Assembly (NCBI GenBank): GCA_022969815.1
Contig: GCA_022969815.1_4535.1
From: Escherichia coli
GTDB taxonomy: Bacteria; Pseudomonadota; Gammaproteobacteria; Enterobacterales; Enterobacteriaceae
Direction: 5' to 3' (one strand)
DNA length: 64,000 bases
Shown here: positions 23,997 to 60,742 of the stretch, one piece after another
Layout of the letters: each line of letters opens with the position of its first letter
How positions within the stretch are numbered: the first letter of the stretch is position 1
The notes under the pieces: model-generated
Seen by the model: only the letters and a program-made list of their open reading frames with translations
Database searches by the model: none
What the model was told of the DNA's origin: nothing
Made by a program: the position numbers and the translations under genes

Positions 23997-24086
23997 TGGA
24001 GGAAGGTAATGGAGTCGAACCATCACCGTATCTCTACAATGGGCCAGGGTTCAAATCTGGTTGCGTACCACTACGCCCTACCTTCC
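23997..24086 (-). tRNA. tRNA-Ser (anticodon UGA; long variable arm, Leu not excluded)
   Basis: Acceptor GGAAGGU/ACCUUCC, anticodon loop UUUGAAC with one stem mismatch, long variable arm, T-loop UUCGACU, encoded CCA. Confidence 0.5.
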
Positions 24087-24321
24087 ATACATTTAATCTA
24101 ACATAAAACGATGTTGATTGTCAACACCTTTTAAAACATTTTATTATGAATGGTGACTCCACCAACCCCCGTTCTCCACGAACGGTACTCTTCGAGCAAT
24201 CTACCCTTGCAATCAAACGTTGTACACCGTTAGCTTACTCATGCATATTTGCCTCATTCTCTGCCAACCATGATCAGTGGTAGGGTTCAAATCACTTGAG
24301 CTAATTCATACTAAAATGTTC

Positions 24322-24396
24322 TGGTGTCTTTACAAGGAATCGAACCTTGACTAAGAGTTTAGAAGACTCCTGTGCTATCCATTACACCATAAAGAC
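24322..24396 (-). tRNA. tRNA-Arg (anticodon UCU)
   Basis: Acceptor GUCUUUA/UAAAGAC, anticodon stem GGAGU/ACUCU with loop CUUCUAA, T-loop UUCGAUU, encoded CCA. Confidence 0.6.
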
Positions 24397-24398
24397 GT

Positions 24399-24473
24399 TG
24401 GTGGCCCTGACTGGTTTCGATCCAGTTGCCTATCGGTTATGAGCCGACTGCTCTCCCATTGAGCTACAGGGCC
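24399..24473 (-). tRNA. tRNA-Met (anticodon CAU; elongator or Ile2-type)
   Basis: Acceptor GGCCCUG/CAGGGCC with G1-C72, D-arm AGCUCAAUGGGAGAGC, anticodon loop CUCAUAA, encoded CCA. Confidence 0.6.
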
Positions 24474-38534: not shown

Positions 38535-39152
38535 ATGAAGATAGTTTGTGATTGGGATCTGGTGGTTGCTCCACTGGATGTTGCTTGGCTGGAATGGTTG
38601 GTTAAAGTTAGCGGAGATTGTGTAGGCTTCTGCGGAGCTGTCAAAAATGTTGACTACGATCTTACTAAATACTTCCCAGGTTTCCGTGAGAAGTTTAACA
38701 TCGATCCTTACGGCTTTCTGGATAATTCCCATCTCTACGATACAATGGGATGTATCAAACCCATGGCTAACTTCTTAGAAGGTGTTGTGAAAGAGGGAGA
38801 TAATGCACTTATTGCAAGTGTGACTAAAGGTGGACACCTTAGCTCAAAACACAAACATGTTTTAAGAACTTTGCCAACCATCGATTTTGGTAAAGGTTCT
38901 GGTAATGGTTTCTTTGCCACAAAAGAAAAATACCTATTGCCTTGTGATATTGCCATAGATGACAGGGCAGAAAACCTGTTGTATTTTCCAGATCATGTTG
39001 TTAAGATTTACTACAATACGATGTATAAAGATTTGTATTTGGAAGAATTAAAAAAGAAACCAAATGTAGTTGTCACAGGTTTGTACAATCAAGCAGAAAC
39101 CTGTTGGCAAGTTTATTCAATGTTAAAAGAACGAGGAGAAATTAATGTCTAA
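38535..39152 (+). CDS. HAD-like 5'-nucleotidase, putative
   Basis: GAGGAGGG RBS; N-terminal IVCDWDLVV fits HAD motif I DxDxV; later DD motif; weak. Confidence 0.3.
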   Translation: MKIVCDWDLVVAPLDVAWLEWLVKVSGDCVGFCGAVKNVDYDLTKYFPGFREKFNIDPYGFLDNSHLYDTMGCIKPMANFLEGVVKEGDNALIASVTKGGHLSSKHKHVLRTLPTIDFGKGSGNGFFATKEKYLLPCDIAIDDRAENLLYFPDHVVKIYYNTMYKDLYLEELKKKPNVVVTGLYNQAETCWQVYSMLKERGEINV

Positions 39153-40140
39153 TATCAGTGCACAAGTCATCGCCCAGTCTATGAACGCAGAAGGGCAAGT
39201 GATTACAACTTTCGAACTGGAATACCCACGTATCATCCATTCTGAGTTGATGACGCACCGCTTATTCTCCCGCAACGCGGCTTCAAGCCGTGCTATTCCG
39301 GTGAAGACCCTGATTGAAATGGTTCGCAAAGAACCTGCTGCACCTGTTCGTTTTGGTCAACACCAACCTGGAATGCAGGATCAAGGCGTAGAATATGATG
39401 CTCTTATTGGGGCAGGTTACTCAGGTCGTGAGTGGTGGAATTTAGCTGCGCTTAGTGCAGCAAACTTTGCAGAACAAATGGCGGAAGCTGGTTACGCGAA
39501 GCAGGTTTGTAATCGCCTTCTTGAACCATTCCAGAGAATGAAGACGGTTCTGACAGCAACCGAGTATGAAAACTTCTGGTGGCTACGTGATGACGCTGAT
39601 GCTGATCCGACTATTGAAGCTTTAGCTAAAGTTATGTTTGAAGCTTATGAAGCCTCTACTCCAGAACTGCTGGCTCCAGGACAATGGCATACGCCTTACG
39701 TAGATCACGTCTACGAGAACATCGGTCTGGAAGGTGATGATGTTTTGGTATTCGCTGGGTATAGCACTACAGATGAAAATGGCAATACTGTCATGCTGTC
39801 GCTGGAAGAAGCACTTGCAATCTCTTCTTCTTGTTGCGCACAAGTGAGCTATCGTCGTCTGAATGCAACTAAAGACAAAGCTTTGGATATCTACGGACGT
39901 TTGCTTACTGGTCGTAAAGTCCACGCTTCTCCGTTTGAACATCAAGCTACACCTATGCAAGCAACCTTTGAACTTCTTGGTGAGAATGCGTCTGAAGATA
40001 TTCTTATTAACGTTCCGTGGTATGCAGCTTCTTGGGAAGTAGGTATTACTCACAGTGATCGTAACGAAAAACTGTGGTCTGGAAATTTCAAAGGATTTAT
40101 CCAGCACCGTCAGCTTTTAAATAATCATACTAAATGGTGA
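39145..40140 (+). CDS. thyX: flavin-dependent thymidylate synthase-like protein (ThyX family)
   Basis: THRLFSRNAASSR matches ThyX signature RHRx7S with first Arg replaced; C-terminal HASPFEHQ; 331 aa, longer than typical ThyX. Confidence 0.55.
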   Translation: MSNISAQVIAQSMNAEGQVITTFELEYPRIIHSELMTHRLFSRNAASSRAIPVKTLIEMVRKEPAAPVRFGQHQPGMQDQGVEYDALIGAGYSGREWWNLAALSAANFAEQMAEAGYAKQVCNRLLEPFQRMKTVLTATEYENFWWLRDDADADPTIEALAKVMFEAYEASTPELLAPGQWHTPYVDHVYENIGLEGDDVLVFAGYSTTDENGNTVMLSLEEALAISSSCCAQVSYRRLNATKDKALDIYGRLLTGRKVHASPFEHQATPMQATFELLGENASEDILINVPWYAASWEVGITHSDRNEKLWSGNFKGFIQHRQLLNNHTKW

Positions 40141-43166: not shown

Positions 43167-43190
43167 ACAGGGGCTTCGGCCCCTTTTTAT
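43167..43190 (+). terminator. rho-independent terminator
   Basis: AGGGGCTTCGGCCCCT hairpin followed by TTTTT. Confidence 0.55.
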
Positions 43191-43202: not shown

Positions 43203-43541
43203 ATGAGCACACTTATAGTTTTACCTGGAGTAACCCCAATCTACCGACCTGGGTTTAAGCCTCTGTTGATTCGCCCTGAAGATTTTACCCCTACTTGGTG
43301 TCACCATTATCTTGGTGGGCTTGAAATAGCTAACATGCAGATTTGGGAATCTTTTTATCCAGAAGCCACGGCTTACGCAATAACAAGGGCAAGAAGTGAA
43401 GAAACAGTGACTGTTATACTTGGTAGAAGCGTATGGGAAGCACTGGAAGCTTTCTACCGGAGCAATGATTTTGAGGAAGAAGATATTTTAAGCTTAAGAG
43501 GTTTTTGTGAAATAGTGGAGGATTTAAATGGCAGCAATTAA
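43203..43541 (+). CDS. hypothetical protein
   Basis: GAGGAGAG RBS. Confidence 0.5.
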   Translation: MSTLIVLPGVTPIYRPGFKPLLIRPEDFTPTWCHHYLGGLEIANMQIWESFYPEATAYAITRARSEETVTVILGRSVWEALEAFYRSNDFEEEDILSLRGFCEIVEDLNGSN

Positions 43542-44613
43542 TTTACATAACGAGACTTACAAAACAGGTAAATATCCAGTTTTCATGGGGGAACAGTTGG
43601 GGATTTTTGATTCTATCAACGTGACTTACCCTGAAATGCACCGTCTGTATAAACTCCAGAAAGCCCAAGATTGGGATGAGAATGAAGTGGATCTTAGTCA
43701 GACCCGTAAAGACTTTGTAGCGTGTTCAAAAAACAACTACGATGTTATGATCAAGAACTTGTCGTTCCAGTGGGAGAATGATTCCCTGGCAAAATCAATC
43801 ATCACTTTGTTCTCTCCGTTTTTGAGCAACAATGAAGCTTGCGCTATGATGATGAAGCAGAGTGAAATGGAAGTGCTTCATGCTCTAACTTACTCGGAGA
43901 TCGTTCGCCAGTGTACTCCAAACCCTGTAGAAGTTATTGATCAGATTATGGAGAACGATAAGATCTTCAACCGTATGGGTATCATTGCAGAGATCATGGG
44001 AGATTTGGAAGAAGCAGGTCACAAATATGCACTTGGTCTGATTGAAGCTGATGATAAACTACGTTTGCTGGTCATGAAAGGTCTGGTAGCCCTGATTGGT
44101 CTGGAAGGTATCCAGTTTATCTCTTCTTTCTCGGCAACGTTCGCCTTGGCAGAACAGCAACTGTTTGTAGGTGCTTGTAAACTGATTCAGAAAATCATGT
44201 TGGATGAAATCCTGCATGTTAAAATGGACTATGCTGTCATTGATGCTCTGATGCAAGATCCTGTGTGGAAAAAGATCTACGAAGATAACATCGAAGAACT
44301 TACGACTATTCTGGATACAGTTATCGCTCAAGAAGAGCAGTGGTGTGATTATCTGTTTAGTGAAGGACGTTTTATCGTTGGACTGAATGCTGAACTATCC
44401 CGTCAATGGGTGTACTTCAATGCGGCTCCAATTTATCGTCGTCTGAAGATGAAGCACAGCTTTAAATCTCCTAAACAGAACCCACTACCTTGGATGGACA
44501 TTTGGTTAAACCCAGATCAGATTCAAGCAGCGGCGCAAGAGATCCAAGTTACAGCTTATAAACTGAACTCGGCTAACAAAGATGTTTCTGATGATATGGA
44601 GTTTGACTTCTAA
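43528..44613 (+). CDS. nrdB: ribonucleoside-diphosphate reductase beta subunit (class Ia)
   Basis: Di-iron ligand helices (EVLHALTYSE), acidic C-terminal tail ending DDMEFDF; 361 aa. Confidence 0.8.
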   Translation: MAAINLHNETYKTGKYPVFMGEQLGIFDSINVTYPEMHRLYKLQKAQDWDENEVDLSQTRKDFVACSKNNYDVMIKNLSFQWENDSLAKSIITLFSPFLSNNEACAMMMKQSEMEVLHALTYSEIVRQCTPNPVEVIDQIMENDKIFNRMGIIAEIMGDLEEAGHKYALGLIEADDKLRLLVMKGLVALIGLEGIQFISSFSATFALAEQQLFVGACKLIQKIMLDEILHVKMDYAVIDALMQDPVWKKIYEDNIEELTTILDTVIAQEEQWCDYLFSEGRFIVGLNAELSRQWVYFNAAPIYRRLKMKHSFKSPKQNPLPWMDIWLNPDQIQAAAQEIQVTAYKLNSANKDVSDDMEFDF

Positions 44614-44831
44614 TGAAACTTAAATGTGTAGGATTGATCGACACATTCAAAGACGTATTTGACAAAGGGGCTTCCTATGAAGCCTCGGAGTTAAAGAACG
44701 GTTTTTGTGATGTGCATGGTAAACGTCTTAAGAAAAACGGAGAACCCTGGCTTGGTGTTATGTCTTGTGGTCATATTGTGGTTAACGGTGTTGCAAAGTT
44801 TGAAATCGTAAAGGAGGAAGATAATGAGTGA
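44613..44831 (+). CDS. hypothetical protein
   Basis: 72-aa ORF overlapping nrdB stop. Confidence 0.4.
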   Translation: MKLKCVGLIDTFKDVFDKGASYEASELKNGFCDVHGKRLKKNGEPWLGVMSCGHIVVNGVAKFEIVKEEDNE

Positions 44832-44967
44832 GTTTCGTTTTTGCCCTATTTGTGGTGGTACAGGTAATGCCTTAATTAGTGCGGAGCAGTACAGCCCGTG
44901 TTGGCATTGTTCTGGTAGTGGTTTGGTAGTTGAAGAAAACAAAGAGGAGGAAAAAGATGGGGATTGA
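44824..44967 (+). CDS. hypothetical zinc-ribbon peptide (47 aa)
   Basis: CPICGG...CWHCSG motif; below ORF-track cutoff. Confidence 0.3.
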   Translation: MSEFRFCPICGGTGNALISAEQYSPCWHCSGSGLVVEENKEEEKDGD

Positions 44968-45283
44968 TATCGAGTGGAAGATGGTGCAAGGCGCACCATA
45001 TAAGAAATGGGAAGAAGTGTTTAAAGGCGATCCGCAGATTGAAGATCAATTCGATGGGGATTTCAACTGGTTTCTTTACGAAGGTATTGGACTGGTAAGC
45101 GTATCCCCGTGGTTTGATGCAGATCCTGAAGATTGTGTTTTTGGTATTGAACTTGCGTCAGGATGCAGCGCACGGGCAATAGACCTCACAAGTTTGGATA
45201 AAAAAGCCAATGAGATCTATTTTGAACTGCTTAATAAGTATAACATTGAAACTGAAACGTTAGTATCACAAAACGTCTGGTAA
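44957..45283 (+). CDS. hypothetical protein
   Basis: GAGGAGGA RBS before ATG at 44957. Confidence 0.45.
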   Translation: MGIDIEWKMVQGAPYKKWEEVFKGDPQIEDQFDGDFNWFLYEGIGLVSVSPWFDADPEDCVFGIELASGCSARAIDLTSLDKKANEIYFELLNKYNIETETLVSQNVW

Positions 45284-45292
45284 GGAGATTAA

Positions 45293-45490
45293 ATGAAAGA
45301 CCAAATGATTAATGGACCTCGTGTAACAGTCAGTCCTAAAACTTTTGCATCTCTTCTGGACGACACTGGTGAGGTTTATACTTACACAAGAGATTCACTG
45401 CCTCTGCCTGAAAGTGCACAGGGTTCACGTTCGCTTTTTTATAAAGGTGTTCTTTTTACGGAAGCAAAAGAAGACAAGGAGACTAAATGA
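45293..45490 (+). CDS. hypothetical protein
   Basis: AAGGAG RBS. Confidence 0.5.
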   Translation: MKDQMINGPRVTVSPKTFASLLDDTGEVYTYTRDSLPLPESAQGSRSLFYKGVLFTEAKEDKETK

Positions 45491-46479
45491 GATACCTGGT
45501 AACAGGTGGTCTTGGTTTCATTGGGAGCGCCGTAGTGCGCTCTCTTTGTCAAGATCCTAATAACGAAGTTTTTGTTATTGATAAAATGGGCTACGCAGCC
45601 GATATTGAAAATGTAGGGGATATCACTCACGCCAAACTAAGTATGACAGATTTGGCAAACGAAGCACAGGTCAAAAGTTTAGTGGTAGAATGCAACCCTG
45701 ATTTCATCATTCATTTAGCGGCAGAGAGTCATGTGGACAACTCTATCAAGAATCCACGAGCTTTCATCGACTCCAATATCATCGGTACATATAATCTGTT
45801 AGAAGCTGCAAGGCTTCTTCCTAAGAACAAGCTGAAGATGTTTGTACACGTCTCTACAGACGAAGTGTACGGTGATATGGAGGACTCTGGTGCTCCATTT
45901 ACCGAAGAGACAGCTTATGCTCCTTCAAGCCCATACAGCGCGTCTAAGGCGGCATCTGATCACCTTGTCAAAGCTTGGCACCGTACTTACGATTTGCCTG
46001 TAGTGATAACCAACTGTTCCAATAACTTTGGGCCTTACCAACACCCTGAAAAATTGATTCCGAAAGTGATCACGAACATCTTGACAAGCAAAGAAATTCC
46101 AGTGTACGGTAAAGGCGATCAAGTAAGAGATTGGCTTTTTGTTGAGGACCATGCGCGAGCTATTCTTCAAGTAGCTTCTGGCGGCGAACCTGGACAAACT
46201 TACAACGTAGGCACACGTAATCCTAAAACCAATATGGAGATCATCTATATGATTTGTGATTACATGGATGCCGTACACCCGCAAAGTGGAACCTACCCGT
46301 CTTCGAGTTTAATAACTTTTGTTGAAGATCGTAAAGGACATGACTTGCATTATGAAATCAACCCTGCTAAGATTGAATCTGAACTGGGTTGGAGTGCAAA
46401 CTCCACATTTGAACAAGACCTTTACTCTACGATAGAGTGGTATTTAAACAACCCTCAATGGTGGAGAGAAAAGATTTAA
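45487..46479 (+). CDS. rmlB: dTDP-glucose 4,6-dehydratase
   Basis: N-terminal [10 protein letters not shown] Rossmann motif, YSASK catalytic motif; 330 aa. Confidence 0.8.
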
Positions 46480-46487
46480 GGAGGGTT

Positions 46488-47366
46488 ATGAAAGGTATTA
46501 TTTTGGCGGGAGGAAGTGGAACCCGCCTACACCCTGTAACACGCAGTGTGAGCAAGCAATTGCTCCCTGTGTATGACAAACCTATGATTTATTATCCTTT
46601 ATCAGTCTTGATGTTGGCAGATATTAAGGATATCTTAATCATCACAACCCCAGGCGATCAGGAAGATTTTGAGTATCTTCTTGGAGATGGATCTATGTTT
46701 GGGATAAAAATCACTTACGCAATGCAGTCTGAACCACGAGGTCTTGCAGATGCTTTCATCATCGGTAAAGATTTTATTGAGGAAGATTCCGTTGCCCTTA
46801 TTTTAGGGGATAACTTGTTCTTCGGACAAAGTTTCGGAAAACTTCTTATCCAAGCCAGCGAAATGGTGGATGTTTGGGGTGGAGCTTGTATCTTCGGGTA
46901 TCTGGTGAAAGATCCTGAACGATTCGGTGTTGTTGAGTTCGGAAGTAATCGCCAAGCTATCTCTATTGAAGAGAAACCGGAACATCCTAAATCAGACTAT
47001 GCCGTCACGGGTTTGTATTTCTATGACAACTCTGTTGTTCAACGTGCATTGGAAGTAACTCCTTCTGATCGTGGAGAACTGGAGATCACAGATATCAATC
47101 GCAGCTACCTCGAAGACAGAAAGTTACAAGTTGAAGTTCTTGGAAGAGGATTCACTTGGCTGGATACAGGGACACACGCCAGTCTAATGGAAGCAGGTCA
47201 ATTCGTGCAGACTATTGAGAACTGCCAAGGATTGAAGATTGCGTGCCTGGAAGAGATTGCTTTCAAAAAAGGGTGGATTTCTTTAGAGACTTTGGTGTAT
47301 CATGGCAACTCATTGAAGAAAACAGAGTACGGGCAATATCTGTTAAAATTAGCGGAGGGTAAATGA
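46488..47366 (+). CDS. rmlA: glucose-1-phosphate thymidylyltransferase
   Basis: N-terminal [16 protein letters not shown] signature; AAGGAGGG RBS before ATG at 46488; 292 aa. Confidence 0.85.
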
Positions 47367-47923
47367 AAATAAAAGAATTAAGTATTCCTGGTCTGGTTGT
47401 CTTTAAACCTCAAGTTTACAAAGATGATCGTGGTTCCTTCACGGAGACGTTTAACGAGAAGATTTACGAAGAGGTTATTGGCAAACAAACGTTTGTTCAG
47501 GATAACCATTCATTCTCTACTTTAGGTGTTCTTCGCGGAATGCACTTTCAAGTAAATAACCCGCAAGGTAAGCTTGTACGTTGCACACGAGGTGAAGTTT
47601 TTGACGTGGCTGTAGATCTTCGTGAAGGTAGTCCAACCTTCGGACAATGGGAAGGTGTGATTCTTAGTGGGTGTAACAATAAACAGTTGTGGATTCCACC
47701 TGGCTTTGCACATGGTTTTGTTGTAACCTCTTATGAAGCCAACTTTGAATACAAGTGCACCAACTACTACGATCCGGCATCTGAACGTAGTTTGTTGTGG
47801 AACGATCCTACTGTGAATATTGATTGGGGTTTTGATATGATTTTCAATGATGAGAATTTTGTACCTATCATTTCGGAAAAGGATGCACAAGCTAAAACAC
47901 TGAAGGAGCTTATGGAATCATGA
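47363..47923 (+). CDS. rmlC: dTDP-4-dehydrorhamnose 3,5-epimerase
   Basis: 186 aa cupin-like with GMHFQ and IPPGFAHGF motifs. Confidence 0.75.
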
Positions 47924-48762
47924 AAACATATTTAGTATTGGGTGGTAATGGTCAATTAGGTCAGGCACTGCGTAAAGTGGTGCCGGAGAATGTGACTTTG
48001 GTGTATCCAGAAAAGCGTGTAGATATCACCAGTTTTGAAGCTGTAAGAAAAGCGATCATGGACACCCCAAATATTAACGGTGTTATCAACTGTGCGGCAT
48101 ACACTGCGGTGGACAAAGCAGAGACAGATGTTGATGCAGCTATGGCTGTAAATTTACACGGGGCAGCTAATATTGCTGCCTTCTGTAAGGCTTGGGATAT
48201 TGACATGGTGCATATTTCTACTGACTATGTGTTCAACAGCGATAAACCGTTGTTCCATCAGGATGAACCCAACCCTATCAATGTTTACGGGTTATCTAAA
48301 AGTTTGGGTGAAGCTGCTGTTCGTGGTATCTACCATAAAGCTTTTATTATCCGCACGGCTTCTGTGTATAGCGAGTTTGGTAACAACTTCCTGAAGACTA
48401 TGGTATCTCGTTACAACGATGGTCAAAGAGACTTCTCGGTAGTTGCAGATCAAACATCTCGACCAACTTATGCCCCAGATTTGGCTAAGATGATTTTCCA
48501 AGTGTTGGAAACAGGATATAACACCCGTACTTTGCATTACGCTGGGAACATCACTGTTTCGTGGCACCAGTTCGCAAAAATGATATTGACACGTATGCCT
48601 GAATCTGTTATTATACACCCGACCTCTGCTGCAACCTATAATTCGGCAGCGATGCGACCAGCAAAGTCTATACTAATTACGTCTGGTTGGAACGAACCTT
48701 CAAGCGTCAGACAAGGTATTGAAGAATCTTTAGCAGTATTACTTAATAAGGAGAGAGCATGA
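47920..48762 (+). CDS. rmlD: dTDP-4-dehydrorhamnose reductase
   Basis: N-terminal LVLGGNGQLGQAL Rossmann motif; 280 aa; last gene of the four-gene rml block. Confidence 0.75.
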   Translation: MKTYLVLGGNGQLGQALRKVVPENVTLVYPEKRVDITSFEAVRKAIMDTPNINGVINCAAYTAVDKAETDVDAAMAVNLHGAANIAAFCKAWDIDMVHISTDYVFNSDKPLFHQDEPNPINVYGLSKSLGEAAVRGIYHKAFIIRTASVYSEFGNNFLKTMVSRYNDGQRDFSVVADQTSRPTYAPDLAKMIFQVLETGYNTRTLHYAGNITVSWHQFAKMILTRMPESVIIHPTSAATYNSAAMRPAKSILITSGWNEPSSVRQGIEESLAVLLNKERA

Positions 48763-49019
48763 ATTTTGTAATTTACGGCAAACCAAATTGCCAGTTCTGT
48801 GAAATGTCCAAACAACTCTTAACTATGCGTGAAAAAGAGTTTGAATATCTGACATTAGATCAGGATTATGATTTTGAAGTGATGACTCAAGCAGTGATCG
48901 CAGCAACAGGAATTGCACCTCGCACCTTCCCGCAGATTTTTGTGGAAGAGCTTGGAGCAGTAACCCACGTAGGCGGTTTTACCGAACTGCGTGATTTCAT
49001 GGCTCAAATTGCGGAGTAA
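48759..49019 (+). CDS. glutaredoxin-like protein (NrdH-like)
   Basis: 86 aa with CQFC redox motif near N-terminus. Confidence 0.65.
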   Translation: MNFVIYGKPNCQFCEMSKQLLTMREKEFEYLTLDQDYDFEVMTQAVIAATGIAPRTFPQIFVEELGAVTHVGGFTELRDFMAQIAE

Positions 49020-49687: not shown

Positions 49688-49710
49688 AAAGGGGCGCAAG
49701 CCCCTTCTAT
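49688..49710 (+). terminator. putative rho-independent terminator
   Basis: GGGGCGCAAGCCCC hairpin with short T tract. Confidence 0.4.
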
Positions 49711-50517: not shown

Positions 50518-51015
50518 ATGGTACAGACAATTATAGATCGGACTGGTATTGATGAATGTTACCAAACTGGGCTTGTGAAGCCTAACGAGTTCCGACAGAT
50601 TTGCGTGAATCATATTGAGAAAGAAATTGCACTAACTTTGGAGAACCTTACCCTCCGAGACAAGCTGTCAATGTTTGTGGCTTGGTGTAAAGGTGAAGAT
50701 TGGTTATTGGCCCATTTTCAAGAACTTTCTGATAGTCAAGAAGGCTTATATGAATGTATAATAGGAATAGCTGGCTCCAATCCTGAACTTCTCCATTTGG
50801 AAGAAGAAGAGGCGAAGTTACTGTTCTTAAGCAACATGTTCAATCGTAAAGCATTGCTTGTTCGTGAGTGTAGTGATCTTTTAAATCATCCACTGGCGAT
50901 CACAAACGAAATACTGGTTGACAAAGAGACATTACGTGCGATAGACTATCTGCGCAAGTATGTCAACGGCGGGAAAGCAGTTCTTAAAACATTAACAGAG
51001 GAGGAAGCAGAATGA
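50518..51015 (+). CDS. hypothetical protein
   Basis: GGAGGG RBS. Confidence 0.5.
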   Translation: MVQTIIDRTGIDECYQTGLVKPNEFRQICVNHIEKEIALTLENLTLRDKLSMFVAWCKGEDWLLAHFQELSDSQEGLYECIIGIAGSNPELLHLEEEEAKLLFLSNMFNRKALLVRECSDLLNHPLAITNEILVDKETLRAIDYLRKYVNGGKAVLKTLTEEEAE

Positions 51016-51698
51016 CTACAATTATCGCAACCAAAAACAAGATCCTTAGCGACGGTAAAGTAACTTTCGGTGGTCGTGTAGATTCGACCAATTTCAAGAA
51101 AGTACGTAAAATTGGGGATTATCTCGTAGGTGGTGCAGGGCGTTTAACTTCGGTTTTAGCTTTCTTCCAGTGGTTCGAACAGAACCTGCAATGTGAAGCG
51201 GCGCGTGAGGCAGTGCCTGGATTGATGATCAGTTCTAACCCTGATCGTGAAGATGAAGAGTTTATTGCTCTCGTTGTTCACCCAGACGGACGTATTTTCC
51301 TACATGAAGGTAATGATCCTACCCGTGCATACCCAATCGACGAAGAATATTACGCAGTAGGTAGTGGTTCCGATTTCGCGCTCGCAGCCCTGGACGGCGG
51401 TGCTTCGCCAGAAGCTGCTATGGAAGTTGCCAAGAAGCGTGACGCATACTCTGGTGGCGAAACCTTCGTTGAAGAATTAGACGAGATCATCGAACTGACT
51501 GATGAAGATCTCGAAAACTTCACCAAACAAGAACTGATCAACCTGCTTAAGTTTGGTAATCCTGCTGGTGAAGAAACTCCTCGTGACGTGGCAGGTGACG
51601 AGACGGTAGAAGAAGTTGTAGTAGAAAAAGACTTGACTTCAAAACCGGAAAATATTAATCTCGTAAATGTAGCGGATTTCGAGAATCCCGCTTCTTAA
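51012..51698 (+). CDS. HslV/proteasome beta-like Ntn-hydrolase with acidic C-terminal extension, putative
   Basis: Thr at position 2 (MTTIIATKN...), GGAGR and YYAVGSGSDFALAALDGG blocks parallel HslV; about 60-aa acidic tail. Confidence 0.45.
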   Translation: MTTIIATKNKILSDGKVTFGGRVDSTNFKKVRKIGDYLVGGAGRLTSVLAFFQWFEQNLQCEAAREAVPGLMISSNPDREDEEFIALVVHPDGRIFLHEGNDPTRAYPIDEEYYAVGSGSDFALAALDGGASPEAAMEVAKKRDAYSGGETFVEELDEIIELTDEDLENFTKQELINLLKFGNPAGEETPRDVAGDETVEEVVVEKDLTSKPENINLVNVADFENPAS

Positions 51699-51743: not shown

Positions 51744-52181
51744 ATGTTGAACGTTCCTGTTAAATTCGTCGATAGCTGTGTTAATGCTTACCAACAAACT
51801 TGTAAACGTGCCTCAAACTGTTTGCAGTCTTTGATTCAAACGCGGTACGTGATCCAAAAGAAAAGAAAGTGGTTTGGTAAGGATTCTTATAGTGTTAATG
51901 CGTTCGGGGAGTATCAACTCCAGTATGACGATAACATGCAACACATCTTAGAGTTTTTACTGATAAAAGATAAAATCTCCCCTGCGGATTACCAGTTACT
52001 TAAATTCTACGATCAGAGTTTGTCTATTGAGGAAGTTATTCAAGATATCCTTTCTCGTAAGACAGATAAGAACACTGTTGGTATTACAAACTTAGAGATG
52101 CAATTGCTCAATGAGATCTTTTTGTTTGTGGAAGATGAGTCTGTAACTAAGGAGGAGCTTTTAAATGGCTTTAAGCTATGA
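51744..52181 (+). CDS. hypothetical protein
   Basis: AGAGGAG RBS. Confidence 0.5.
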   Translation: MLNVPVKFVDSCVNAYQQTCKRASNCLQSLIQTRYVIQKKRKWFGKDSYSVNAFGEYQLQYDDNMQHILEFLLIKDKISPADYQLLKFYDQSLSIEEVIQDILSRKTDKNTVGITNLEMQLLNEIFLFVEDESVTKEELLNGFKL

Positions 52182-52674
52182 TCGTCCAGAGTCCGATTAC
52201 TATCCGACTCCGCAAAAAGCGATTAACTCGTTATTTAGCATTATTGATTTTAAAAATTTGAAAGAGGAAGGATTTACATTTGCAGAACCGTGTAAAGGAC
52301 AAGCAGCGGCTATTTACCGTCACTTTCCTGAAGGTTCTCAGTATTGTGAGCTTGAAGAAGGTAAAGATTATTTTAGTCACGTATGGGAAAATCGTCCCGA
52401 CATTATAATCACGAACCCTCCATTCAAGCTGGCATTAGAGTTCTTGGAAAAGAGCTTGAAAGAAGCAGACGTGTCAGTCTACCTGCTTCGCCTGGGATTC
52501 CTTGAGTCAAAGAAACGTCGAGCGTTTCATCAAGAAAACCCACCTACGAATTTGATTGTACTCTCCGAACGTCCTTCGTTCGTAGCAGGTGGAACAGATA
52601 AGACAGCGTATGCTTGGTACGTATACGATCCAAAACAAATTTTGGGTCTAACTCAACCATTTTATTTCGTTTAA
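52165..52674 (+). CDS. DNA N6-adenine methyltransferase (small phage Dam-like), putative
   Basis: DYYPTP near N-terminus and catalytic IIITNPPF (NPPF/Y motif IV). Confidence 0.55.
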   Translation: MALSYDRPESDYYPTPQKAINSLFSIIDFKNLKEEGFTFAEPCKGQAAAIYRHFPEGSQYCELEEGKDYFSHVWENRPDIIITNPPFKLALEFLEKSLKEADVSVYLLRLGFLESKKRRAFHQENPPTNLIVLSERPSFVAGGTDKTAYAWYVYDPKQILGLTQPFYFV

Positions 52675-55041: not shown

Positions 55042-55334
55042 TGTATAAAATTACAATCGTAGAATCTGTGGGCGAGATTCGTAAAGAAATTATTCTGGAG
55101 ACGGAAGATCTGGAACTGGTACGTGAAATCATAATTGGGAAGGATGTAGATAAGGTTGAGTCGGACGCTCCGAATCTGATGATCGATGATCAATATGCAG
55201 AATTTCGTCGTATTTTTGAGGAGGAAAGGAAGAAGTGGGGCAAAGAACCACACGTTTTTCGTCCTTATAATCCATATCCTTCTGGTGATCCGTGGATCAT
55301 GACTAACAGAAACCCGTTTGAAATAACCTGTTGA
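55041..55334 (+). CDS. hypothetical protein
   Basis: AGGAGG RBS. Confidence 0.5.
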   Translation: MYKITIVESVGEIRKEIILETEDLELVREIIIGKDVDKVESDAPNLMIDDQYAEFRRIFEEERKKWGKEPHVFRPYNPYPSGDPWIMTNRNPFEITC

Positions 55335-55342
55335 GGTGGCCT

Positions 55343-55921
55343 ATGAGCAACCTATTTTACACAGGTGTGGGAAGTCGAGAGATAACCCACGAAGAATGGG
55401 ATTTAATGGTCGCTGTAGCAAAGTGGTTGGCTAACTGTGGTTTTACTTTACGTTCAGGTAATGCAAACGGTAGTGACTCTGCTTTCGAAACTGGTGTAGA
55501 AGAATCTAAAAACAAAACTCTCAAGGAGATTTATATCCCTTGGGAGAAGTTTGAAGGCAATGATATCCCAGGTGAGAAGATAGTGCTTGCTAATCCTGAC
55601 AGTATGAACTATGCTATCAGTCTCCAGTGGATAAAGGAAATCCATCCAGCATTTGATAAACTTAAACAAGGTGCACGTAAATTGCATCAACGCAACGTTC
55701 ATCAGGTGTTGGGACAAGATCTGGAGCATCCCGTGCCTTCCTTATTCTTATTGGCATGTTCCAAAGAGGATAAGAAGGGAGATGTTATGGGCGGAACAAG
55801 GACGGCGTGGCTCATCGCTAAAGCTAATAACGTTCCATGTTTTAACTTACGTGGTAAAACAAAGGAAGAACTTTATGCTTTTCTTAAACCGTTGGTCAAG
55901 GGGGCAATCAGTGGCAATTAA
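55343..55921 (+). CDS. DprA/SLOG-family Rossmann-fold protein, putative
   Basis: YTGVGSRE and LRSGNANGSDSAFETG resemble DprA/Smf blocks; ATG at 55343. Confidence 0.35.
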   Translation: MSNLFYTGVGSREITHEEWDLMVAVAKWLANCGFTLRSGNANGSDSAFETGVEESKNKTLKEIYIPWEKFEGNDIPGEKIVLANPDSMNYAISLQWIKEIHPAFDKLKQGARKLHQRNVHQVLGQDLEHPVPSLFLLACSKEDKKGDVMGGTRTAWLIAKANNVPCFNLRGKTKEELYAFLKPLVKGAISGN

Positions 55922-57436: not shown

Positions 57437-57447
57437 TTGTGTGAGTG

Positions 57448-57476
57448 TTGACAAGACACGAAGAACCTGGTAGACT
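57448..57476 (+). promoter_or_regulatory. sigma70-like promoter
   Basis: TTGACA - 17 nt - TAGACT. Confidence 0.5.
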
Positions 57477-57504
57477 TGTCTCATCAACTAAGAGAGGAGG
57501 ATAT

Positions 57505-58449
57505 ATGAAAGTATTAATCGGTAGTCGTGCGTTGGAAATGATTTGTCGTTCTCGTGGTGTAGAACTGTATCGTGCTTGCGTAGATCTGGATTACCTCTGC
57601 ACTGAAGAAGAGTGGCAAGCAGAAGCCCAGAAATTCTCGAAAGATCGTTTCGTGGAAATTGTTGAACGTAAAGGTAACAAAGGGCATATCAAAATGATCG
57701 CGGGTGCTCATCTGGAATACGATATTGCTCAACCAGGGGATTCTACAGAAGCATTGATCGAATACATTAAAGAGAATGCAGATCATCTGCCACATATTGG
57801 TTACGATGTGGTTGCACCTTTGGATGTTTTGTATCTCCTGAAAATGAGTCACCGTTTTAAGAAGGACAGTCCTCACTTCCTGAAAACAATGAAGGATATC
57901 CACTTCATGCGTAACCTTGGAGCGAAGATCCCTGAAGAGTTGGAAGATACATACAAACTGCGTCAGAAGGAGTCCTATAATTACGGGCACCCTAATCTGA
58001 ACGTGAAAAGTAAAGATTTCTTCAAGGGTGATGAAGTGCCTTATGTGTATGATCACGATACCATCCATGAAGCTGTTGCCGTGTTGGGTGATCCCGCTTA
58101 TAAATCATACATGAAAGACGATAGCGAAGTGATGACCAGTAAAGAGAAGTTCTTTGCACAACCTAAACATATCCGTTTGCTGGGTGTTTACGAAGAAGCT
58201 TGTGTCCTGGCATTAGAGCGTTCACAGATCCCGTTTGGGGAAGATGTAGATGGTCCAACTCCTAAACAAAGTTTTATGATGGCTTTATCCAAAGTTTGTA
58301 CCTCGATCACCAGTGGATGGTTTCGTGAATATGCCTGGGAAAACTTCCAAGTTGTGGTAAAACTGTATGAGCAAATGGGCCAAGATGATTACGTGGCACG
58401 TTTTAAAGCAAATCTTCACATGGTGAAACCTTACGAAGGAGGTTATTGA
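57505..58449 (+). CDS. hypothetical protein
   Basis: GAGAGGAGG RBS before ATG at 57505; 314 aa. Confidence 0.5.
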   Translation: MKVLIGSRALEMICRSRGVELYRACVDLDYLCTEEEWQAEAQKFSKDRFVEIVERKGNKGHIKMIAGAHLEYDIAQPGDSTEALIEYIKENADHLPHIGYDVVAPLDVLYLLKMSHRFKKDSPHFLKTMKDIHFMRNLGAKIPEELEDTYKLRQKESYNYGHPNLNVKSKDFFKGDEVPYVYDHDTIHEAVAVLGDPAYKSYMKDDSEVMTSKEKFFAQPKHIRLLGVYEEACVLALERSQIPFGEDVDGPTPKQSFMMALSKVCTSITSGWFREYAWENFQVVVKLYEQMGQDDYVARFKANLHMVKPYEGGY

Positions 58450-58450: not shown

Positions 58451-58849
58451 ATGGGTTGGTGTGATCAGTCACAAAGTTACTTCAAAGTAACACATGTGGA
58501 TCTCAATAAAGCAAGAGTGAAGTTGTTGAGTATTGAAAAAGAAACAGCAGCTATTGACAAACGCCTCCGAGAGAGTAAAGTGGTAATCACTTCTTGGTTC
58601 GGACTGAAACGTAAAATCCTTACGCAGCGAGAGCATGTAATTAAAAATATGCATGGTTGGGCTTGGTTCCACGACATGGCAAAACACTTGGGGTACATTT
58701 CTACTGAAGAACACGACCTCTTGGAGCTACGTTATCGCCTTCCAGATGTAGAAGATTTAGACTTGTGGATCAGTTCCGAACAAATCTTCTTAACCGAGAG
58801 CGATTGGAAGAAAGTCAATATTTGTCTTAAATGGAGGGAGAATGAGTAA
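58451..58849 (+). CDS. hypothetical protein
   Basis: GAAGGAGG RBS. Confidence 0.5.
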   Translation: MGWCDQSQSYFKVTHVDLNKARVKLLSIEKETAAIDKRLRESKVVITSWFGLKRKILTQREHVIKNMHGWAWFHDMAKHLGYISTEEHDLLELRYRLPDVEDLDLWISSEQIFLTESDWKKVNICLKWRENE

Positions 58850-59525
58850 AGTAGTTTTATCAACATTTGATGGATCTGGAATCATGGTACTTCGTTACGC
58901 AGAAGCAGGGCATAAATGCTACTGTGTAAATGCTGACGAAGGTGATCACGGGGCTTATGAAGTTCGCATGGAACATCCTAACATCACTTACGTGAACGCA
59001 TGGATTGATTCCAACTTCAACCCTGAAGATTACGGTATTCCTAAGCCAGATATTATCTTTGGCTTCCCTCCGTGTACCATGCTTGCTGGTTGCGGTAGTA
59101 AGCACGAACGTAGCGCAGAAGAATTGGAAGAAGCTTTGGCTAACATTCGTATCGTGGAAGCTTTAGGAAATAAATACAACGTTCCGTGGATGATTGAGAA
59201 TCCAGTGGGTAAACTGTCAACATTGTGGCGTAAACCGGATTTCTATTTCGATCCTTACGAATATGGCGGATATCTGTTTGATGAAGAAGGCAGCTTCCAC
59301 CCTAAAATGCCTACCCGCGACGGTTACACAAAGAAAACCTGTATTTGGCATGGCAATGGTTTTGTTAAGCCTGTGAAGAAGCCTGTGGAACATATTGGTT
59401 GCTTCTGGGGCTGGAAAAGTTTAGGCGGAGCAAGTGCGAAAACAAAACAACTCCGATCGTTAACTGCTCGCGGTTTTGCTCGTGCTGTGTTTTTATCTAA
59501 CAACCTTTTAGATAAGGAGGAATGA
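58842..59525 (+). CDS. DNA cytosine-5 methyltransferase-like protein (minimal), putative
   Basis: LSTFDGSG (motif I-like FxGxG), GFPPCTML (motif IV PC), ENPVG (motif VI ENV-like); only 227 aa. Confidence 0.4.
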   Translation: MSKVVLSTFDGSGIMVLRYAEAGHKCYCVNADEGDHGAYEVRMEHPNITYVNAWIDSNFNPEDYGIPKPDIIFGFPPCTMLAGCGSKHERSAEELEEALANIRIVEALGNKYNVPWMIENPVGKLSTLWRKPDFYFDPYEYGGYLFDEEGSFHPKMPTRDGYTKKTCIWHGNGFVKPVKKPVEHIGCFWGWKSLGGASAKTKQLRSLTARGFARAVFLSNNLLDKEE

Positions 59526-60247: not shown

Positions 60248-60742
60248 ATGTTTCAAGTAGAAATTCATGTGCACGACAGTTGTTCAAATTGCGAAACTTG
60301 TGGTTACAATAGTTCAACCATGATCACTATTAGCGGAGACTTAGGACATGCTAAGTTTGGCGAAGTCGCAAGCTGCTTCGGCGGAGAGGATGCAGATTGG
60401 CATGATATTGCTTTGTGGCTATGCGGAAGACTGAATGTAAATTGTAAAGACTTCCCTGAACTGTTGAGCCGAAATCTTGTCGATAGTCGGGAACAAGCCT
60501 ACAATATTTATGCCGCTTCTGTTTATGTTGATCATAAATGGGTAGAAGATGAAGAAGCTGAACGTTTGCTACGCCTCTACTATGAAGCAGAGGAAGCTTA
60601 TGATAACTATTACAGCATGTCCAACATCCTGCGTTTGTTTGCAGAGTTTGATATTTACTTTGAAGTGAGTTATTCTGAAGATGAAGTGTATGATTTTGAT
60701 GACGATGATTACGAGGAGGATGAAGAATGCCAAGACGATTAA
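60248..60742 (+). CDS. hypothetical acidic protein
   Basis: GGGAGGA RBS before ATG at 60248; very acidic C-terminus. Confidence 0.45.
   Translation: MFQVEIHVHDSCSNCETCGYNSSTMITISGDLGHAKFGEVASCFGGEDADWHDIALWLCGRLNVNCKDFPELLSRNLVDSREQAYNIYAASVYVDHKWVEDEEAERLLRLYYEAEEAYDNYYSMSNILRLFAEFDIYFEVSYSEDEVYDFDDDDYEEDEECQDD

What the first reader, a model, noticed from the sequence alone, without database searches (positions are those of the whole stretch)
45487..48762. Complete dTDP-L-rhamnose pathway (rmlB-rmlA-rmlC-rmlD) inside the phage nucleotide-metabolism module
Four consecutive, translationally coupled genes carry the hallmark motifs of all four enzymes that convert glucose-1-phosphate plus dTTP to dTDP-L-rhamnose. 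They sit between nrdA/nrdB and a glutaredoxin-like gene. No glycosyltransferase is recognisable in the window, so the acceptor is unknown. Candidate roles: glycosylation of phage DNA or a virion protein, modification of host surface polysaccharide to block superinfection, or diversion of dTTP/sugar-nucleotide pools. The unassigned ORFs just upstream (44613..45490) and several downstream hypotheticals are candidate partner enzymes. This looks like the best candidate for an uncharacterised functional system in the window.
Basis: partly seen in the sequence, partly recalled or inferred. Interest (0 to 1): 0.8.

Follow-up and report, generated by a model that had tools for sequence, protein, structure and literature searches.

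The report
Phage dTDP-rhamnose synthesis gene block
Four adjacent genes in this E. coli phage do encode the full pathway for the activated sugar dTDP-L-rhamnose, but the block is already annotated and discussed in close relatives, its likely partners are glycosyltransferase genes elsewhere in the phage genome, and what gets rhamnosylated is still unknown.

Summary
Window 45487-48762 (+) holds rmlB, rmlA, rmlC and rmlD. All four score above NCBIfam equivalog cut-offs, keep their catalytic motifs, and are under strong purifying selection.

The window is a Phapecoctavirus-like myovirus (Stephanstirmvirinae). The same block is annotated in about 130 relatives. Published work already calls it 'peculiar' (Olsen 2020; BASEL 2021), so the presence is not new and only the role is open.

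New points from this work:
- Complete genomes of relatives carry three or four glycosyltransferase genes about 75 kb away. Their distribution among phages matches that of rmlC.
- Two lineages (ESCO37, Klebsiella phi1_175008) lack rmlB and rmlA but keep rmlC and rmlD. This points to dTDP-L-rhamnose as the selected product, not dTTP consumption.
- The same glycosyltransferase cassette recurs in unrelated temperate phages just upstream of terminase, once with an RmlB-like dehydratase inside it.
- DNA glycosylation is unlikely. phi92-like relatives that carry both gene sets are restriction-sensitive, and I found no enzyme that makes a hydroxylated base.

My best guess is that the phage supplies rhamnose to its own glycosyltransferases during lytic growth, with a phage protein as acceptor. 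The acceptor is inferred, not shown.

The parts
45487..46479 (+). rmlB, dTDP-glucose 4,6-dehydratase (330 aa)
   Evidence: TIGR01181 scores 431.6 bits against a cut-off of 365.1. PDB 1g1a matches at E 6e-111, with GGxGFIGS, TDE and YxxxK conserved. 94% aa identity to phage ukendt, dN/dS 0.036.
46488..47366 (+). rmlA, glucose-1-phosphate thymidylyltransferase (292 aa; start corrected to ATG 46488)
   Evidence: TIGR01207 scores 454.9 bits against 360.65. PDB 4ho0 matches at E 9e-119, with GGSGTRL present. AAGGAGG lies 4 nt upstream of the ATG. dN/dS is 0.033.
47363..47923 (+). rmlC, dTDP-4-dehydrorhamnose 3,5-epimerase (186 aa)
   Evidence: TIGR01221 scores 243.6 bits against 155.75. PDB 2ixi matches at E 6e-61, with the catalytic His, Lys, Tyr and Asp positions conserved. 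Only 64% aa identity to ukendt, which marks a divergent allele.
47920..48762 (+). rmlD, dTDP-4-dehydrorhamnose reductase (280 aa)
   Evidence: TIGR01214 scores 244.6 bits against 224.05. PDB 3sc6 matches at E 1e-49, with STDYVF and YxxxK present. 66% aa identity to ukendt, dN/dS 0.09.
44957..45283 (+). 108-aa ORF of unknown function, always directly or nearly directly upstream of the rml genes in relatives
   Evidence: It matches phrog_15453, unknown function. It has about the same distribution as the rml genes, 133 phage records. It is kept next to rmlC in the phages that have only rmlC and rmlD. No function is assigned, so its membership of the system is uncertain.
45293..45490 (+). 65-aa ORF whose stop overlaps the rmlB start (ATGA)
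   Evidence: It matches phrog_27883, unknown function. A 65-aa ORF sits in the same position in phi92, but none is present in phiWec179 or ukendt, so it is probably not part of the pathway.
48759..49019 (+). Glutaredoxin (86 aa), overlapping the rmlD stop. It belongs to the nrd module, not to the sugar pathway.
   Evidence: PF00462 matches at E 1e-10, and TIGR02181 scores below its cut-off. It is conserved downstream of rmlD in ukendt, phi92, ESCO37 and phi1_175008.
43528..44613 (+). nrdB, the upstream boundary of the insertion site of the rml block
   Evidence: Translation and annotation in relatives.
43169..43184 (+). Terminator-like hairpin after nrdA. With the G+C-rich inverted repeat at 49688-49707, which the scan reported on the minus strand, it may bracket a transcription unit containing nrdB, the rml genes, grx and the lysozyme-like gene.
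   Evidence: Consensus scan only. The number of sites found does not exceed the number found in shuffled sequence, so this is weak evidence.

Best explanation
The block is a working phage copy of the bacterial RmlA, RmlB, RmlC, RmlD route. Glucose-1-phosphate plus dTTP gives dTDP-glucose, then dTDP-4-keto-6-deoxy-glucose, then dTDP-4-keto-rhamnose, then dTDP-L-rhamnose. Assignment to the four families is shown here. Enzyme activity is inferred from those assignments.

I propose that it guarantees a supply of dTDP-L-rhamnose during lytic growth in any E. coli host. RmlC and RmlD are the essential additions. All Enterobacterales already make dTDP-4-keto-6-deoxy-glucose through RffH and RffG for enterobacterial common antigen. 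Only strains with rhamnose-containing O-antigens have RmlC and RmlD. RmlA and RmlB then serve to increase flux.

The sugar is most likely used by the phage's own glycosyltransferase cassette. That cassette has one or two GT4-like GT-B enzymes plus two small GT-A-like enzymes with DxD motifs. It lies outside the window, next to the endolysin and primase genes in complete genomes of relatives. I think it builds a rhamnose-containing glycan on a phage-made acceptor. The link between the rml genes and the cassette is inferred from co-occurrence and from one case of physical linkage.

I think the most probable acceptor is a phage protein, probably a virion protein. This step is inferred and is the weakest.
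For: Family assignment and constraint:
- All four genes score above their equivalog cut-offs and keep their catalytic motifs.
- dN/dS is 0.03-0.16 wherever dS is not saturated.
- Base composition matches the neighbouring genes.
- DNA identity to E. coli rfb genes is only 63-66%, over less than half of the block. This is an old resident of the phage, not a recent capture from the host.

The product matters, not dTTP consumption:
- ESCO37 has a clean deletion of rmlB and rmlA but keeps rmlC, rmlD and the glycosyltransferase cluster.
- The divergent Klebsiella phage phi1_175008 also has only rmlC and rmlD.
- In the window, rmlC and rmlD are replaced by alleles only 64-66% identical to those of ukendt, while rmlB and rmlA are 94-97% identical. 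The full set was still retained.

Partner glycosyltransferases:
- Phage ukendt has four consecutive glycosyltransferase genes, assigned to glycosyltransferase PHROGs.
- AlphaFold models are confident, with pLDDT 93.7 and 83.9.
- Megablast with each block finds 71 phage records with the same organism breakdown.
- tblastn finds RmlC at 60% identity or more in 132 records and the GT-B in 131. The sampled rows listed no rV5-like phages.
- The window's closest relatives, the phiWec phages, have both gene sets.

Link to 6-deoxyhexose chemistry and to late functions:
- Homologues of gp216, gp217 and gp218 form a cassette in unrelated temperate phages. It always lies between the lysis or late-regulator genes and terminase (blastp).
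- In the Enterobacter huaxiensis prophage, an RmlB-like NDP-hexose 4,6-dehydratase sits inside the cassette.

Hint at a protein acceptor:
- In Burkholderia dolosa and Trinickia symbiotica, a GT-B homologue (42-45% identical) lies in a non-phage operon directly after an invasin/intimin-type adhesin.

Precedents:
- Mycobacteriophage glycosyltransferases modify capsid and tail-tube proteins (citing Freeman 2023).
- Chloroviruses and Mimivirus encode L-rhamnose pathways for capsid or fibril glycans.
Against: - No glycan, glycoprotein or enzyme activity has been measured for any of these phages in the papers I could search.
- The co-occurrence of rml genes and glycosyltransferases is largely explained by shared ancestry within one subfamily. 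It counts as roughly one evolutionary event, not many.
- The sugar specificity of the glycosyltransferases is unknown. Most GT4 enzymes use UDP-, GDP- or ADP-D-sugars.
- The temperate-phage cassettes mostly lack any rml gene.
- The glycosyltransferase cluster lies in an early or middle-looking module next to primase and DNA polymerase, not among structural genes.
- Capsid, sheath and tube proteins in the window show no Ser/Thr-rich tails.
- The window itself does not contain the glycosyltransferases, so their presence in this exact phage is inferred from relatives.
- RmlD passes its cut-off by only 20 bits. A C4 reductase of opposite stereochemistry, which would make dTDP-6-deoxy-L-talose, cannot be excluded from sequence.
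Confidence: 0.4

Rival explanations
1. Remodelling of the host envelope. dTDP-L-rhamnose and the phage glycosyltransferases would build or alter a lipid-linked glycan, such as an Und-PP-linked unit, the LPS core or O-unit, or ECA. Host flippases and ligases would then export it. The result would change the infected cell's surface, blocking superinfection or stopping progeny from sticking to debris.
For: - Rhamnose is a typical surface-glycan sugar in Enterobacterales.
- These phages recognise surface glycans and LPS core, so changing them could matter.
- The cassette lies next to lysis genes in every context I examined.
Against: - No phage flippase, polymerase, initiating transferase or membrane-spanning glycosyltransferase was seen in the window or in the ukendt regions I read.
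- In temperate phages the cassette sits in the late operon before terminase, not beside int/att where lysogenic-conversion glycosyltransferases usually lie. The statement about int/att is my own knowledge of gtrABC-type loci.
- A surface change has little time to take effect within one lytic cycle.
Confidence: 0.25
2. DNA glycosylation. Rhamnose would be transferred to a modified base in phage DNA to evade nucleases, as glucose is on T4 hydroxymethylcytosine or arabinose on RB69 5-hydroxycytosine.
For: - Both gene sets lie in DNA-metabolism or replication modules.
- Olsen 2020 proposed this role.
- There is a precedent for a phage sugar-nucleotide pathway combined with several DNA glycosyltransferases.
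- gp217 gives short, weak matches to TAGT and to the beta-glucosyl-HMC alpha-glucosyltransferase PHROG.
- In temperate phages the cassette sits just before terminase, a position where DNA-modification genes are common.
Against: - phi92-like BASEL phages, which carry both the rml genes and the glycosyltransferases, are described as 'exceptionally susceptible' to restriction-modification systems.
- No ThyA-family hydroxymethylase or hydroxylase and no TET/JBP enzyme was found in the window or annotated in the ukendt regions I read.
- The only thymidylate-synthase-like gene is a ThyX-like protein shared with more than 1000 phages, including rV5-like, ICP1 and N4-like phages that lack the rml genes and the cassette.
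- The matches to DNA glycosylation families cover only about 40 residues of the general GT-A nucleotide-binding region.
Confidence: 0.12
3. A purely metabolic role with no link to the phage glycosyltransferases. The block would top up or divert host pools, for example by acting as a dTTP sink or buffer, draining the ECA precursor dTDP-4-keto-6-deoxy-glucose, or sustaining host rhamnose-containing glycans after host shut-off.
For: - The block is embedded between nrdB and grx, together with ThyX, a 5'-nucleotidase-like gene and a MazG-like gene.
- No glycosyltransferase is adjacent.
- rmlA and rmlB can be lost.
Against: - The variants that lack rmlA, which is the dTTP-consuming step, still keep rmlC and rmlD under conservation. 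This argues against a dTTP-sink role.
- Having RmlA and RmlB raises the 4-keto intermediate rather than draining it.
- The position between nrdB and grx looks like an insertion site, because these two genes appear to lie close together in PVP-SE1.
- The phyletic match with the glycosyltransferase cluster and the dehydratase inside a related cassette favour a donor-acceptor relationship.
Confidence: 0.1

Closest known systems
The rml block of published Stephanstirmvirinae phages (phAPEC8, phi92, phiWec179, ukendt, BASEL Bas60-62)
   Same: Same genes, same order and same neighbours: nrdB, small ORFs, rmlB-A-C-D, grx, lysozyme, PhoH, HslV. phiWec179 is 97.4% identical at the DNA level over the block. 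The block is already annotated as the dTDP-rhamnose pathway and has been called 'peculiar' in print.
   Different: The window and the phiWec phages carry divergent rmlC, rmlD and grx alleles, 64, 66 and 76% aa identity to ukendt. Their rmlB and rmlA are 94-97% identical to ukendt, so there is a recombination breakpoint at the rmlA|rmlC junction. An extra 65-aa ORF precedes rmlB, as in phi92.
Bacterial RmlABCD / RfbBDAC pathway (E. coli, Salmonella, P. aeruginosa)
   Same: The same four enzyme families with intact active sites, and matches to solved structures at E 1e-49 to 1e-119.
   Different: The genes are phage-borne. The order is B-A-C-D rather than the enterobacterial B-D-A-C (my own knowledge). 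DNA identity to E. coli rfb is only 63-66%. There are no adjacent O-antigen glycosyltransferase, wzx or wzy genes. The best structural relatives come from different phyla for different genes: Salmonella for RmlB, Aneurinibacillus for RmlA, Pseudomonas for RmlC and Bacillus for RmlD.
Autonomous glycosylation in giant viruses (chlorovirus Vp54 glycans, Mimivirus fibrils)
   Different: They use the UDP-based two-enzyme route rather than the dTDP four-enzyme route, and they are eukaryotic viruses. No virion glycan has been demonstrated for the phages discussed here.
Mycobacteriophage virion glycosylation (Freeman et al. 2023, as cited in PMC11600133)
   Same: Tandem phage glycosyltransferase genes modify capsid and tail-tube proteins. 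Distant tblastn hits of the GT-B (24-26% identity) fall on glycosyltransferases of actinobacteriophages.
   Different: No sugar-nucleotide pathway was reported with those glycosyltransferases in what I read. Sequence similarity is very low. The hosts are Gram-positive-type, and the acceptor for the phages discussed here is untested.
Phage DNA glycosylation systems (T4 glucosyl-hmC; RB69, DLP3 and HY126 arabinosyl-5-hydroxycytosine)
   Same: A phage-encoded sugar-nucleotide supply plus several glycosyltransferases, located in nucleotide-metabolism regions.
   Different: Those systems need a ThyA-family enzyme to make a hydroxylated pyrimidine, and they give broad resistance to restriction. Here I found no such enzyme, and the relatives are restriction-sensitive.

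Membership tests
RmlB, dTDP-glucose 4,6-dehydratase (TIGR01181) | Whole-protein score above the curated equivalog cut-off | tested here: met
   431.6 bits against 365.1.
RmlB, dTDP-glucose 4,6-dehydratase (TIGR01181) | NAD-binding GxxGxxG motif, the Thr-Asp-Glu acid/base residues and the YxxxK motif | tested here: met
   [15 protein letters not shown] and YSASKAA align with Salmonella RmlB 1g1a.
RmlA, glucose-1-phosphate thymidylyltransferase (TIGR01207) | Score above the equivalog cut-off, and the GGxGTRL nucleotide-binding loop | tested here: met
   454.9 bits against 360.65. GGSGTRL aligns with 4ho0.
RmlC, dTDP-4-dehydrorhamnose 3,5-epimerase (TIGR01221) | Score above the equivalog cut-off, and the catalytic His and Tyr with their supporting Lys and Asp | tested here: met
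   243.6 bits against 155.75. RGMHFQ, GKLVR, FEYK and WND align with the P. aeruginosa RmlC structures 2ixi and 1rtv.
RmlD, dTDP-4-dehydrorhamnose reductase (TIGR01214) | Score above the equivalog cut-off, and the SDR Thr/Tyr/Lys triad | tested here: met
   244.6 bits against 224.05, a modest margin. STDYVF and YGLSK align with 3sc6.
RmlD, dTDP-4-dehydrorhamnose reductase (TIGR01214) | The stereochemistry of C4 reduction gives L-rhamnose and not 6-deoxy-L-talose | not testable with these tools
   This needs an enzyme assay with NMR or HPLC identification of the product.
Complete dTDP-L-rhamnose pathway | All four activities are demonstrated, converting glucose-1-phosphate and dTTP to dTDP-L-rhamnose | not testable with these tools
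   The sequence evidence is strong, but I found no biochemical data for any phage copy in the searched papers.
Phage DNA glycosylation system (T4 or RB69 type) | A thymidylate-synthase-superfamily enzyme, or TET/JBP, that makes a hydroxylated or hydroxymethylated pyrimidine | tested here: not met
   None was found in the window by Pfam, and none is annotated in ukendt 1-50 kb or 112-151 kb. The ThyX-like gene is shared with more than 1000 phages of many kinds.
Phage DNA glycosylation system (T4 or RB69 type) | Virion DNA is broadly resistant to restriction enzymes | tested here: not met
   From the literature only. phi92-like phages that carry the rml genes and the glycosyltransferases are 'exceptionally susceptible' to restriction-modification systems. 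This was not tested for this exact phage.
Phage DNA glycosylation system (T4 or RB69 type) | A glycosyltransferase that is specifically related to known DNA glycosyltransferases | tested here: inconclusive
Virus-encoded virion-protein glycosylation (chlorovirus or mycobacteriophage type) | Virus-encoded cytoplasmic glycosyltransferases plus a donor supply | tested here: met
   The glycosyltransferase cluster is present in relatives, with confident GT-B and GT-A folds. The rml block is in the window. The glycosyltransferases themselves are not in the window.
Virus-encoded virion-protein glycosylation (chlorovirus or mycobacteriophage type) | A glycan is demonstrated on a virion protein | not testable with these tools
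   This needs MS or staining of purified virions. The sequence check for Ser/Thr-rich tails was uninformative.
Lysogenic-conversion O-antigen modification (gtrABC type) | A membrane bactoprenol glycosyltransferase and flippase, located next to int/att and expressed in lysogens | tested here: not met
   No such proteins were found in the window or in the relatives' annotation. These are virulent phages, and in temperate phages the related cassette lies in the late operon.

The most novel reading that the evidence does not exclude
The rml genes and the gp216-gp217-gp218 glycosyltransferase cassette together form an uncharacterised phage glycosylation module. The module is widespread: it is found in Stephanstirmvirinae and, as a late-operon cassette just upstream of terminase, in many temperate phages of Proteobacteria. 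It would attach a 6-deoxyhexose (rhamnose) glycan to virion components. That would be the first virion glycosylation system described for phages of Gram-negative bacteria. A less likely variant is sparse or site-specific rhamnosylation of packaged DNA that needs no ThyA-type hydroxylase.
Probability: 0.3. Interest if true: 0.7.

Novelty: already known. Interest (0 to 1): 0.35.

Why it matters
Phapecoctavirus and phi92-like phages are broad-host-range coliphages that are often isolated for therapy. If they coat a virion component or the infected cell with a rhamnose glycan, this could affect antibody recognition, stability, host range and superinfection. It would also extend virus-encoded 'autonomous glycosylation' from giant viruses and mycobacteriophages to phages of enterobacteria.

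The natural variants that have only rmlC and rmlD, and the separate glycosyltransferase cluster, give clean genetic handles for testing this. As a sequence finding, however, the block is ordinary. It consists of canonical enzymes that are already annotated and already noted in the literature.

Tried and rejected
- **Upstream small ORFs as partner enzymes.** ORFs in 44613-45490 gave no Pfam or NCBIfam hit, and those scanned gave only unknown-function PHROGs. They are too small, so I rejected them.
- **A glycosyltransferase hidden in the window.** Pfam or PHROG scans of 50 further ORFs and tblastn with the four ukendt glycosyltransferases found none.
- **Sequence search of the GT-B proteins against PDB.** This gave nothing useful, so I used structure prediction instead.
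- **Recent capture from the host.** Rejected: only 63-66% DNA identity to E. coli rfb, and composition is like the neighbouring genes.
- **The divergent ThyX-like gene as a base-modifying partner.** Rejected as specific evidence, because it occurs in more than 1000 phages of many groups.
- **Ser/Thr-rich glycosylation tails on capsid, sheath or tube proteins.** None were seen.
- **Literature on function.** Searches for any functional study of phage rml genes in this group found only annotation-level remarks.
- **The promoter and terminator scan.** It did not exceed the shuffled background.

Full report
**Observation**

The region 45487-48762 holds four consecutive + strand ORFs. Each scores above the curated NCBIfam equivalog cut-off for one enzyme of the dTDP-L-rhamnose pathway:

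| Gene | Model | Score (bits) | Cut-off (bits) |
|---|---|---|---|
| RmlB | TIGR01181 | 431.6 | 365.1 |
| RmlA | TIGR01207 | 454.9 | 360.65 |
| RmlC | TIGR01221 | 243.6 | 155.75 |
| RmlD | TIGR01214 | 244.6 | 224.05 |

Pfam agrees. Alignments to solved structures show the cofactor-binding and catalytic motifs intact in all four.

rmlA starts at ATG 46488, behind an AAGGAGG site. Four junctions are ATGA overlaps: orf65|rmlB, rmlA|rmlC, rmlC|rmlD and rmlD|grx. rmlB and rmlA are 8 nt apart.

Upstream lie nrdA, a 112-aa ORF, nrdB and four small ORFs. Downstream lie a glutaredoxin, a small ORF, a lysozyme-like gene, PhoH and an HslV-like gene.

**What the window is, and whether this is new**

The block is 97.4% identical to Escherichia phage phiWec179 and about 83% identical to phAPEC8-type phages (Stephanstirmvirinae, Phapecoctavirus). 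The four genes are already annotated there as the rhamnose pathway.

The order nrdB, small ORFs, rmlB-A-C-D, grx, lysozyme, PhoH, HslV is conserved in ukendt and in phi92.

- Olsen et al. [quoted passage not shown] They called its place in the DNA-metabolism region 'peculiar' and suggested glycosylation of hydroxymethylated nucleotides.
- The BASEL paper mentions a 'putative dTDP glycosylation machinery' in phi92-like phages.

So the presence of the pathway is known. I found no functional study.

**The genes are maintained by selection and are old residents**

- dN/dS is 0.03-0.16 wherever synonymous divergence is not saturated.
- GC and GC3 match the neighbouring genes.
- DNA identity to E. 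coli rfb genes is only 63-66%, over less than half of the block.
- The block is mosaic. The window's RmlB and RmlA are 94% and 97% identical to ukendt. RmlC, RmlD and Grx are only 64%, 66% and 76% identical. The breakpoint is at the rmlA|rmlC junction.
- In phi92's annotation, nrdB and grx are compared with PVP-SE1 gp139 and gp141, whose gene numbers suggest they lie close together. The block therefore looks like an insertion into the nrdAB-grx module. This weakens the argument that its position implies a role in nucleotide metabolism.

**Which part is essential**

ESCO37 is reported to lack rmlA and rmlB. Its record shows a clean loss of both genes. rmlC, rmlD and grx follow directly after the conserved 108-aa ORF, and ESCO37 keeps the glycosyltransferase cluster.

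A divergent Klebsiella phage of the same subfamily, phi1_175008, has the same layout with only rmlC and rmlD.

All Enterobacterales make dTDP-4-keto-6-deoxy-glucose through RffH and RffG for enterobacterial common antigen (established knowledge). Consistent with this, all 5426 E. coli genomes matched the block, with a median of one place per genome.

So RmlC and RmlD are enough to make dTDP-L-rhamnose in any host, and RmlA and RmlB add flux. This points to the end product as the selected output. It argues against a role as a dTTP sink.

**Partner enzymes**

No glycosyltransferase is in the window. Complete genomes of relatives do have them.

- Phage ukendt has four consecutive genes annotated as glycosyltransferases (gp216-219, at record positions 145545-148689). 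They lie between an endolysin with some small ORFs on one side and primase/helicase, a Dam-like methyltransferase and DNA polymerase on the other.
- They belong to glycosyltransferase PHROGs. Their Pfam matches are only marginal.
- gp218 and gp219 are paralogues, 41% identical.
- A model of a gp217 homologue (P0123, 81% identical; pLDDT 83.9) is a GT-A with a DDD motif. It matches GlfT2, ppGalNAc-T1, TarP, Listeria RmlT and PBCV-1 A64R, among others.

The distribution of these genes matches that of the rml genes.

- Megablast with each block finds 71 records with the same organism breakdown.
- By tblastn, RmlC at 60% identity or more occurs in 132 records and the GT-B in 131. The groups are the same: Phapecoctavirus, the phiWec phages, Justusliebigvirus, Citrobacter Tr1 and Klebsiella relatives. 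The sampled rows listed no rV5-like phages.

This co-occurrence is mostly shared ancestry, so it is supportive but weak.

**Independent contexts of the cassette**

The GT-B family has 209 detectable homologues. Many lie in prophages or temperate-phage contigs of Pseudomonas, Enterobacter, Serratia and metagenomes.

In these, a homologue of gp217 (37-43% identical), and often one of gp216 (41-43%), accompanies the GT-B (43-46%). The cassette always lies between the lysis or late-regulator genes and the terminase genes (blastp).

In the Enterobacter huaxiensis prophage, a 340-aa RmlB-like NDP-hexose 4,6-dehydratase lies inside the cassette. It scores 179.6 bits on TIGR01181, below the cut-off, and is 30% identical to the window's RmlB. 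This is a second, physical link between this cassette and 6-deoxyhexose chemistry.

In Burkholderia dolosa and Trinickia symbiotica, the GT-B alone (42-45% identical) follows an invasin/intimin-type inverse autotransporter and beta-rich proteins in a non-phage operon. By analogy with glycosyltransferases that modify autotransporter adhesins (my own knowledge), this hints at a protein acceptor.

**DNA glycosylation is unlikely**

- phi92-like BASEL phages carry both gene sets: JohannJBalmer and PaulScherrer for rmlC. The group is described as 'exceptionally susceptible' to restriction-modification systems.
- Known phage DNA glycosylation starts from a hydroxylated pyrimidine made by a ThyA-family enzyme. 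I found none here.
- The only candidate is a ThyX-like protein. It occurs in more than 1000 phages of many groups, including ones that lack the rml genes and the cassette.
- gp217's matches to DNA glycosylation families span only about 40 residues.

Sparse or site-specific modification is not excluded.

**Verdict on mechanism**

- Shown: four intact, conserved Rml-family genes, and bona fide glycosyltransferase folds encoded by the relatives.
- Inferred with moderate support: the phage makes dTDP-L-rhamnose for its own glycosyltransferases during lytic growth.
- Inferred with weak support: the acceptor is a phage (virion) protein. This rests on the late-operon position of the cassette in temperate phages, the association with an adhesin in Burkholderiaceae, the restriction sensitivity, and the precedents in mycobacteriophages and giant viruses.

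Host-envelope remodelling is a serious rival, because many of the GT-B's best structural matches act on lipid-linked acceptors.

Two caveats apply. The glycosyltransferase cluster is not in the window, so its presence in this exact phage is inferred from relatives 96-97% identical to the window. RmlD clears its cut-off by only about 20 bits, so a product epimeric at C4 (6-deoxy-L-talose) cannot be ruled out.

**Novelty and score**

The feature is real but already known at the level of annotation and published comment, and its enzymes are canonical. Its remaining interest is the unanswered acceptor question, which the variants with only rmlC and rmlD and the separate glycosyltransferase cluster make easy to test experimentally.

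Noticed in passing
window 5237-5540 (-), with 4386-5156 (-), 5524-6690 (-) and 3293-4360 (+): A group I intron (Rfam RF00028, 84.6 bits against a gathering score of 50) interrupts the tape-measure gene. The gene's two halves match phrog_16051 positions 1-398 and 407-658. An HNH or homing-endonuclease-like ORF (phrog_681 and phrog_559) lies just beside them on the opposite strand.
   Followed up: partly
window 21569-24473 (-): A cluster of 11 tRNA genes: Met x2, Ile, Pro, Gln, Gly, Thr, Tyr, Ser x2 and Arg. It lies between the structural arm and the early region.
   Followed up: no
window 47363 (rmlA|rmlC junction): A recombination breakpoint. Compared with phage ukendt, rmlB and rmlA are 94-97% identical at the aa level, but rmlC, rmlD and grx are only 64-76% identical. 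The rmlB-rmlA deletion in ESCO37 ends at the same junction.
   Followed up: yes
L003 33546-36690 (phage ukendt, record 145545-148689); not in the window: Four consecutive glycosyltransferase genes lie next to the endolysin, primase/helicase, a Dam-like methyltransferase and DNA polymerase. Two are GT4-like GT-B paralogues and two are small GT-A-like proteins with DxD motifs. Among phages they have the same distribution as the rml genes.
   Followed up: yes
L007 9357-10960; L008 7797-10921; L010 5589-7670; L014 6358-7960; L015 7001-8598: Homologues of gp216, gp217 and gp218 form a conserved cassette in unrelated temperate phages and prophages, always just upstream of terminase. In the Enterobacter huaxiensis prophage (L008 8354-9376), an RmlB-like 4,6-dehydratase sits inside it.
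   Followed up: partly
L011 3025-8440; L012 2742-9026: In Burkholderia dolosa and Trinickia symbiotica, a homologue of the phage GT-B (42-45% identical) lies in a chromosomal operon after an invasin/intimin-type inverse autotransporter and beta-rich proteins of unknown function. This may be an adhesin glycosylation system.
   Followed up: no
window 39145-40140 (+): A long (331 aa), divergent ThyX-like protein. Pfam Thy1 matches only at E 3e-9, and the first Arg of the RHR motif is replaced by Thr. Homologues occur in more than 1000 phages, including rV5-like, ICP1 and N4-like (gp30-like) phages.
   Followed up: partly
window 52165-52674 (+) and 58842-59525 (+): Two small putative DNA methyltransferases. 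The first has an NPPF motif, and its phi92 and phi1_175008 homologues are annotated as DNA methyltransferase. The second matches phrog_757. Relatives carry an additional Dam-like methyltransferase next to the polymerase.
   Followed up: no
window 51012-51698, 55331-55921, 57445-58449 and 60727-61530 (+): Other unusual accessory genes in the early region: an HslV/proteasome-like peptidase, a DprA/SLOG-like protein (weak PF02481 match), a DUF7277-DUF7275 protein and a SIR2/CobB-like deacylase.
   Followed up: no
window 44957-45283 (+): A 108-aa ORF of unknown function (phrog_15453) always lies directly or nearly directly upstream of the rml genes. It is kept in the variants that have only rmlC and rmlD. 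It matches 133 phage records, almost all in this subfamily, plus weak hits in a Salmonella phage.
   Followed up: partly
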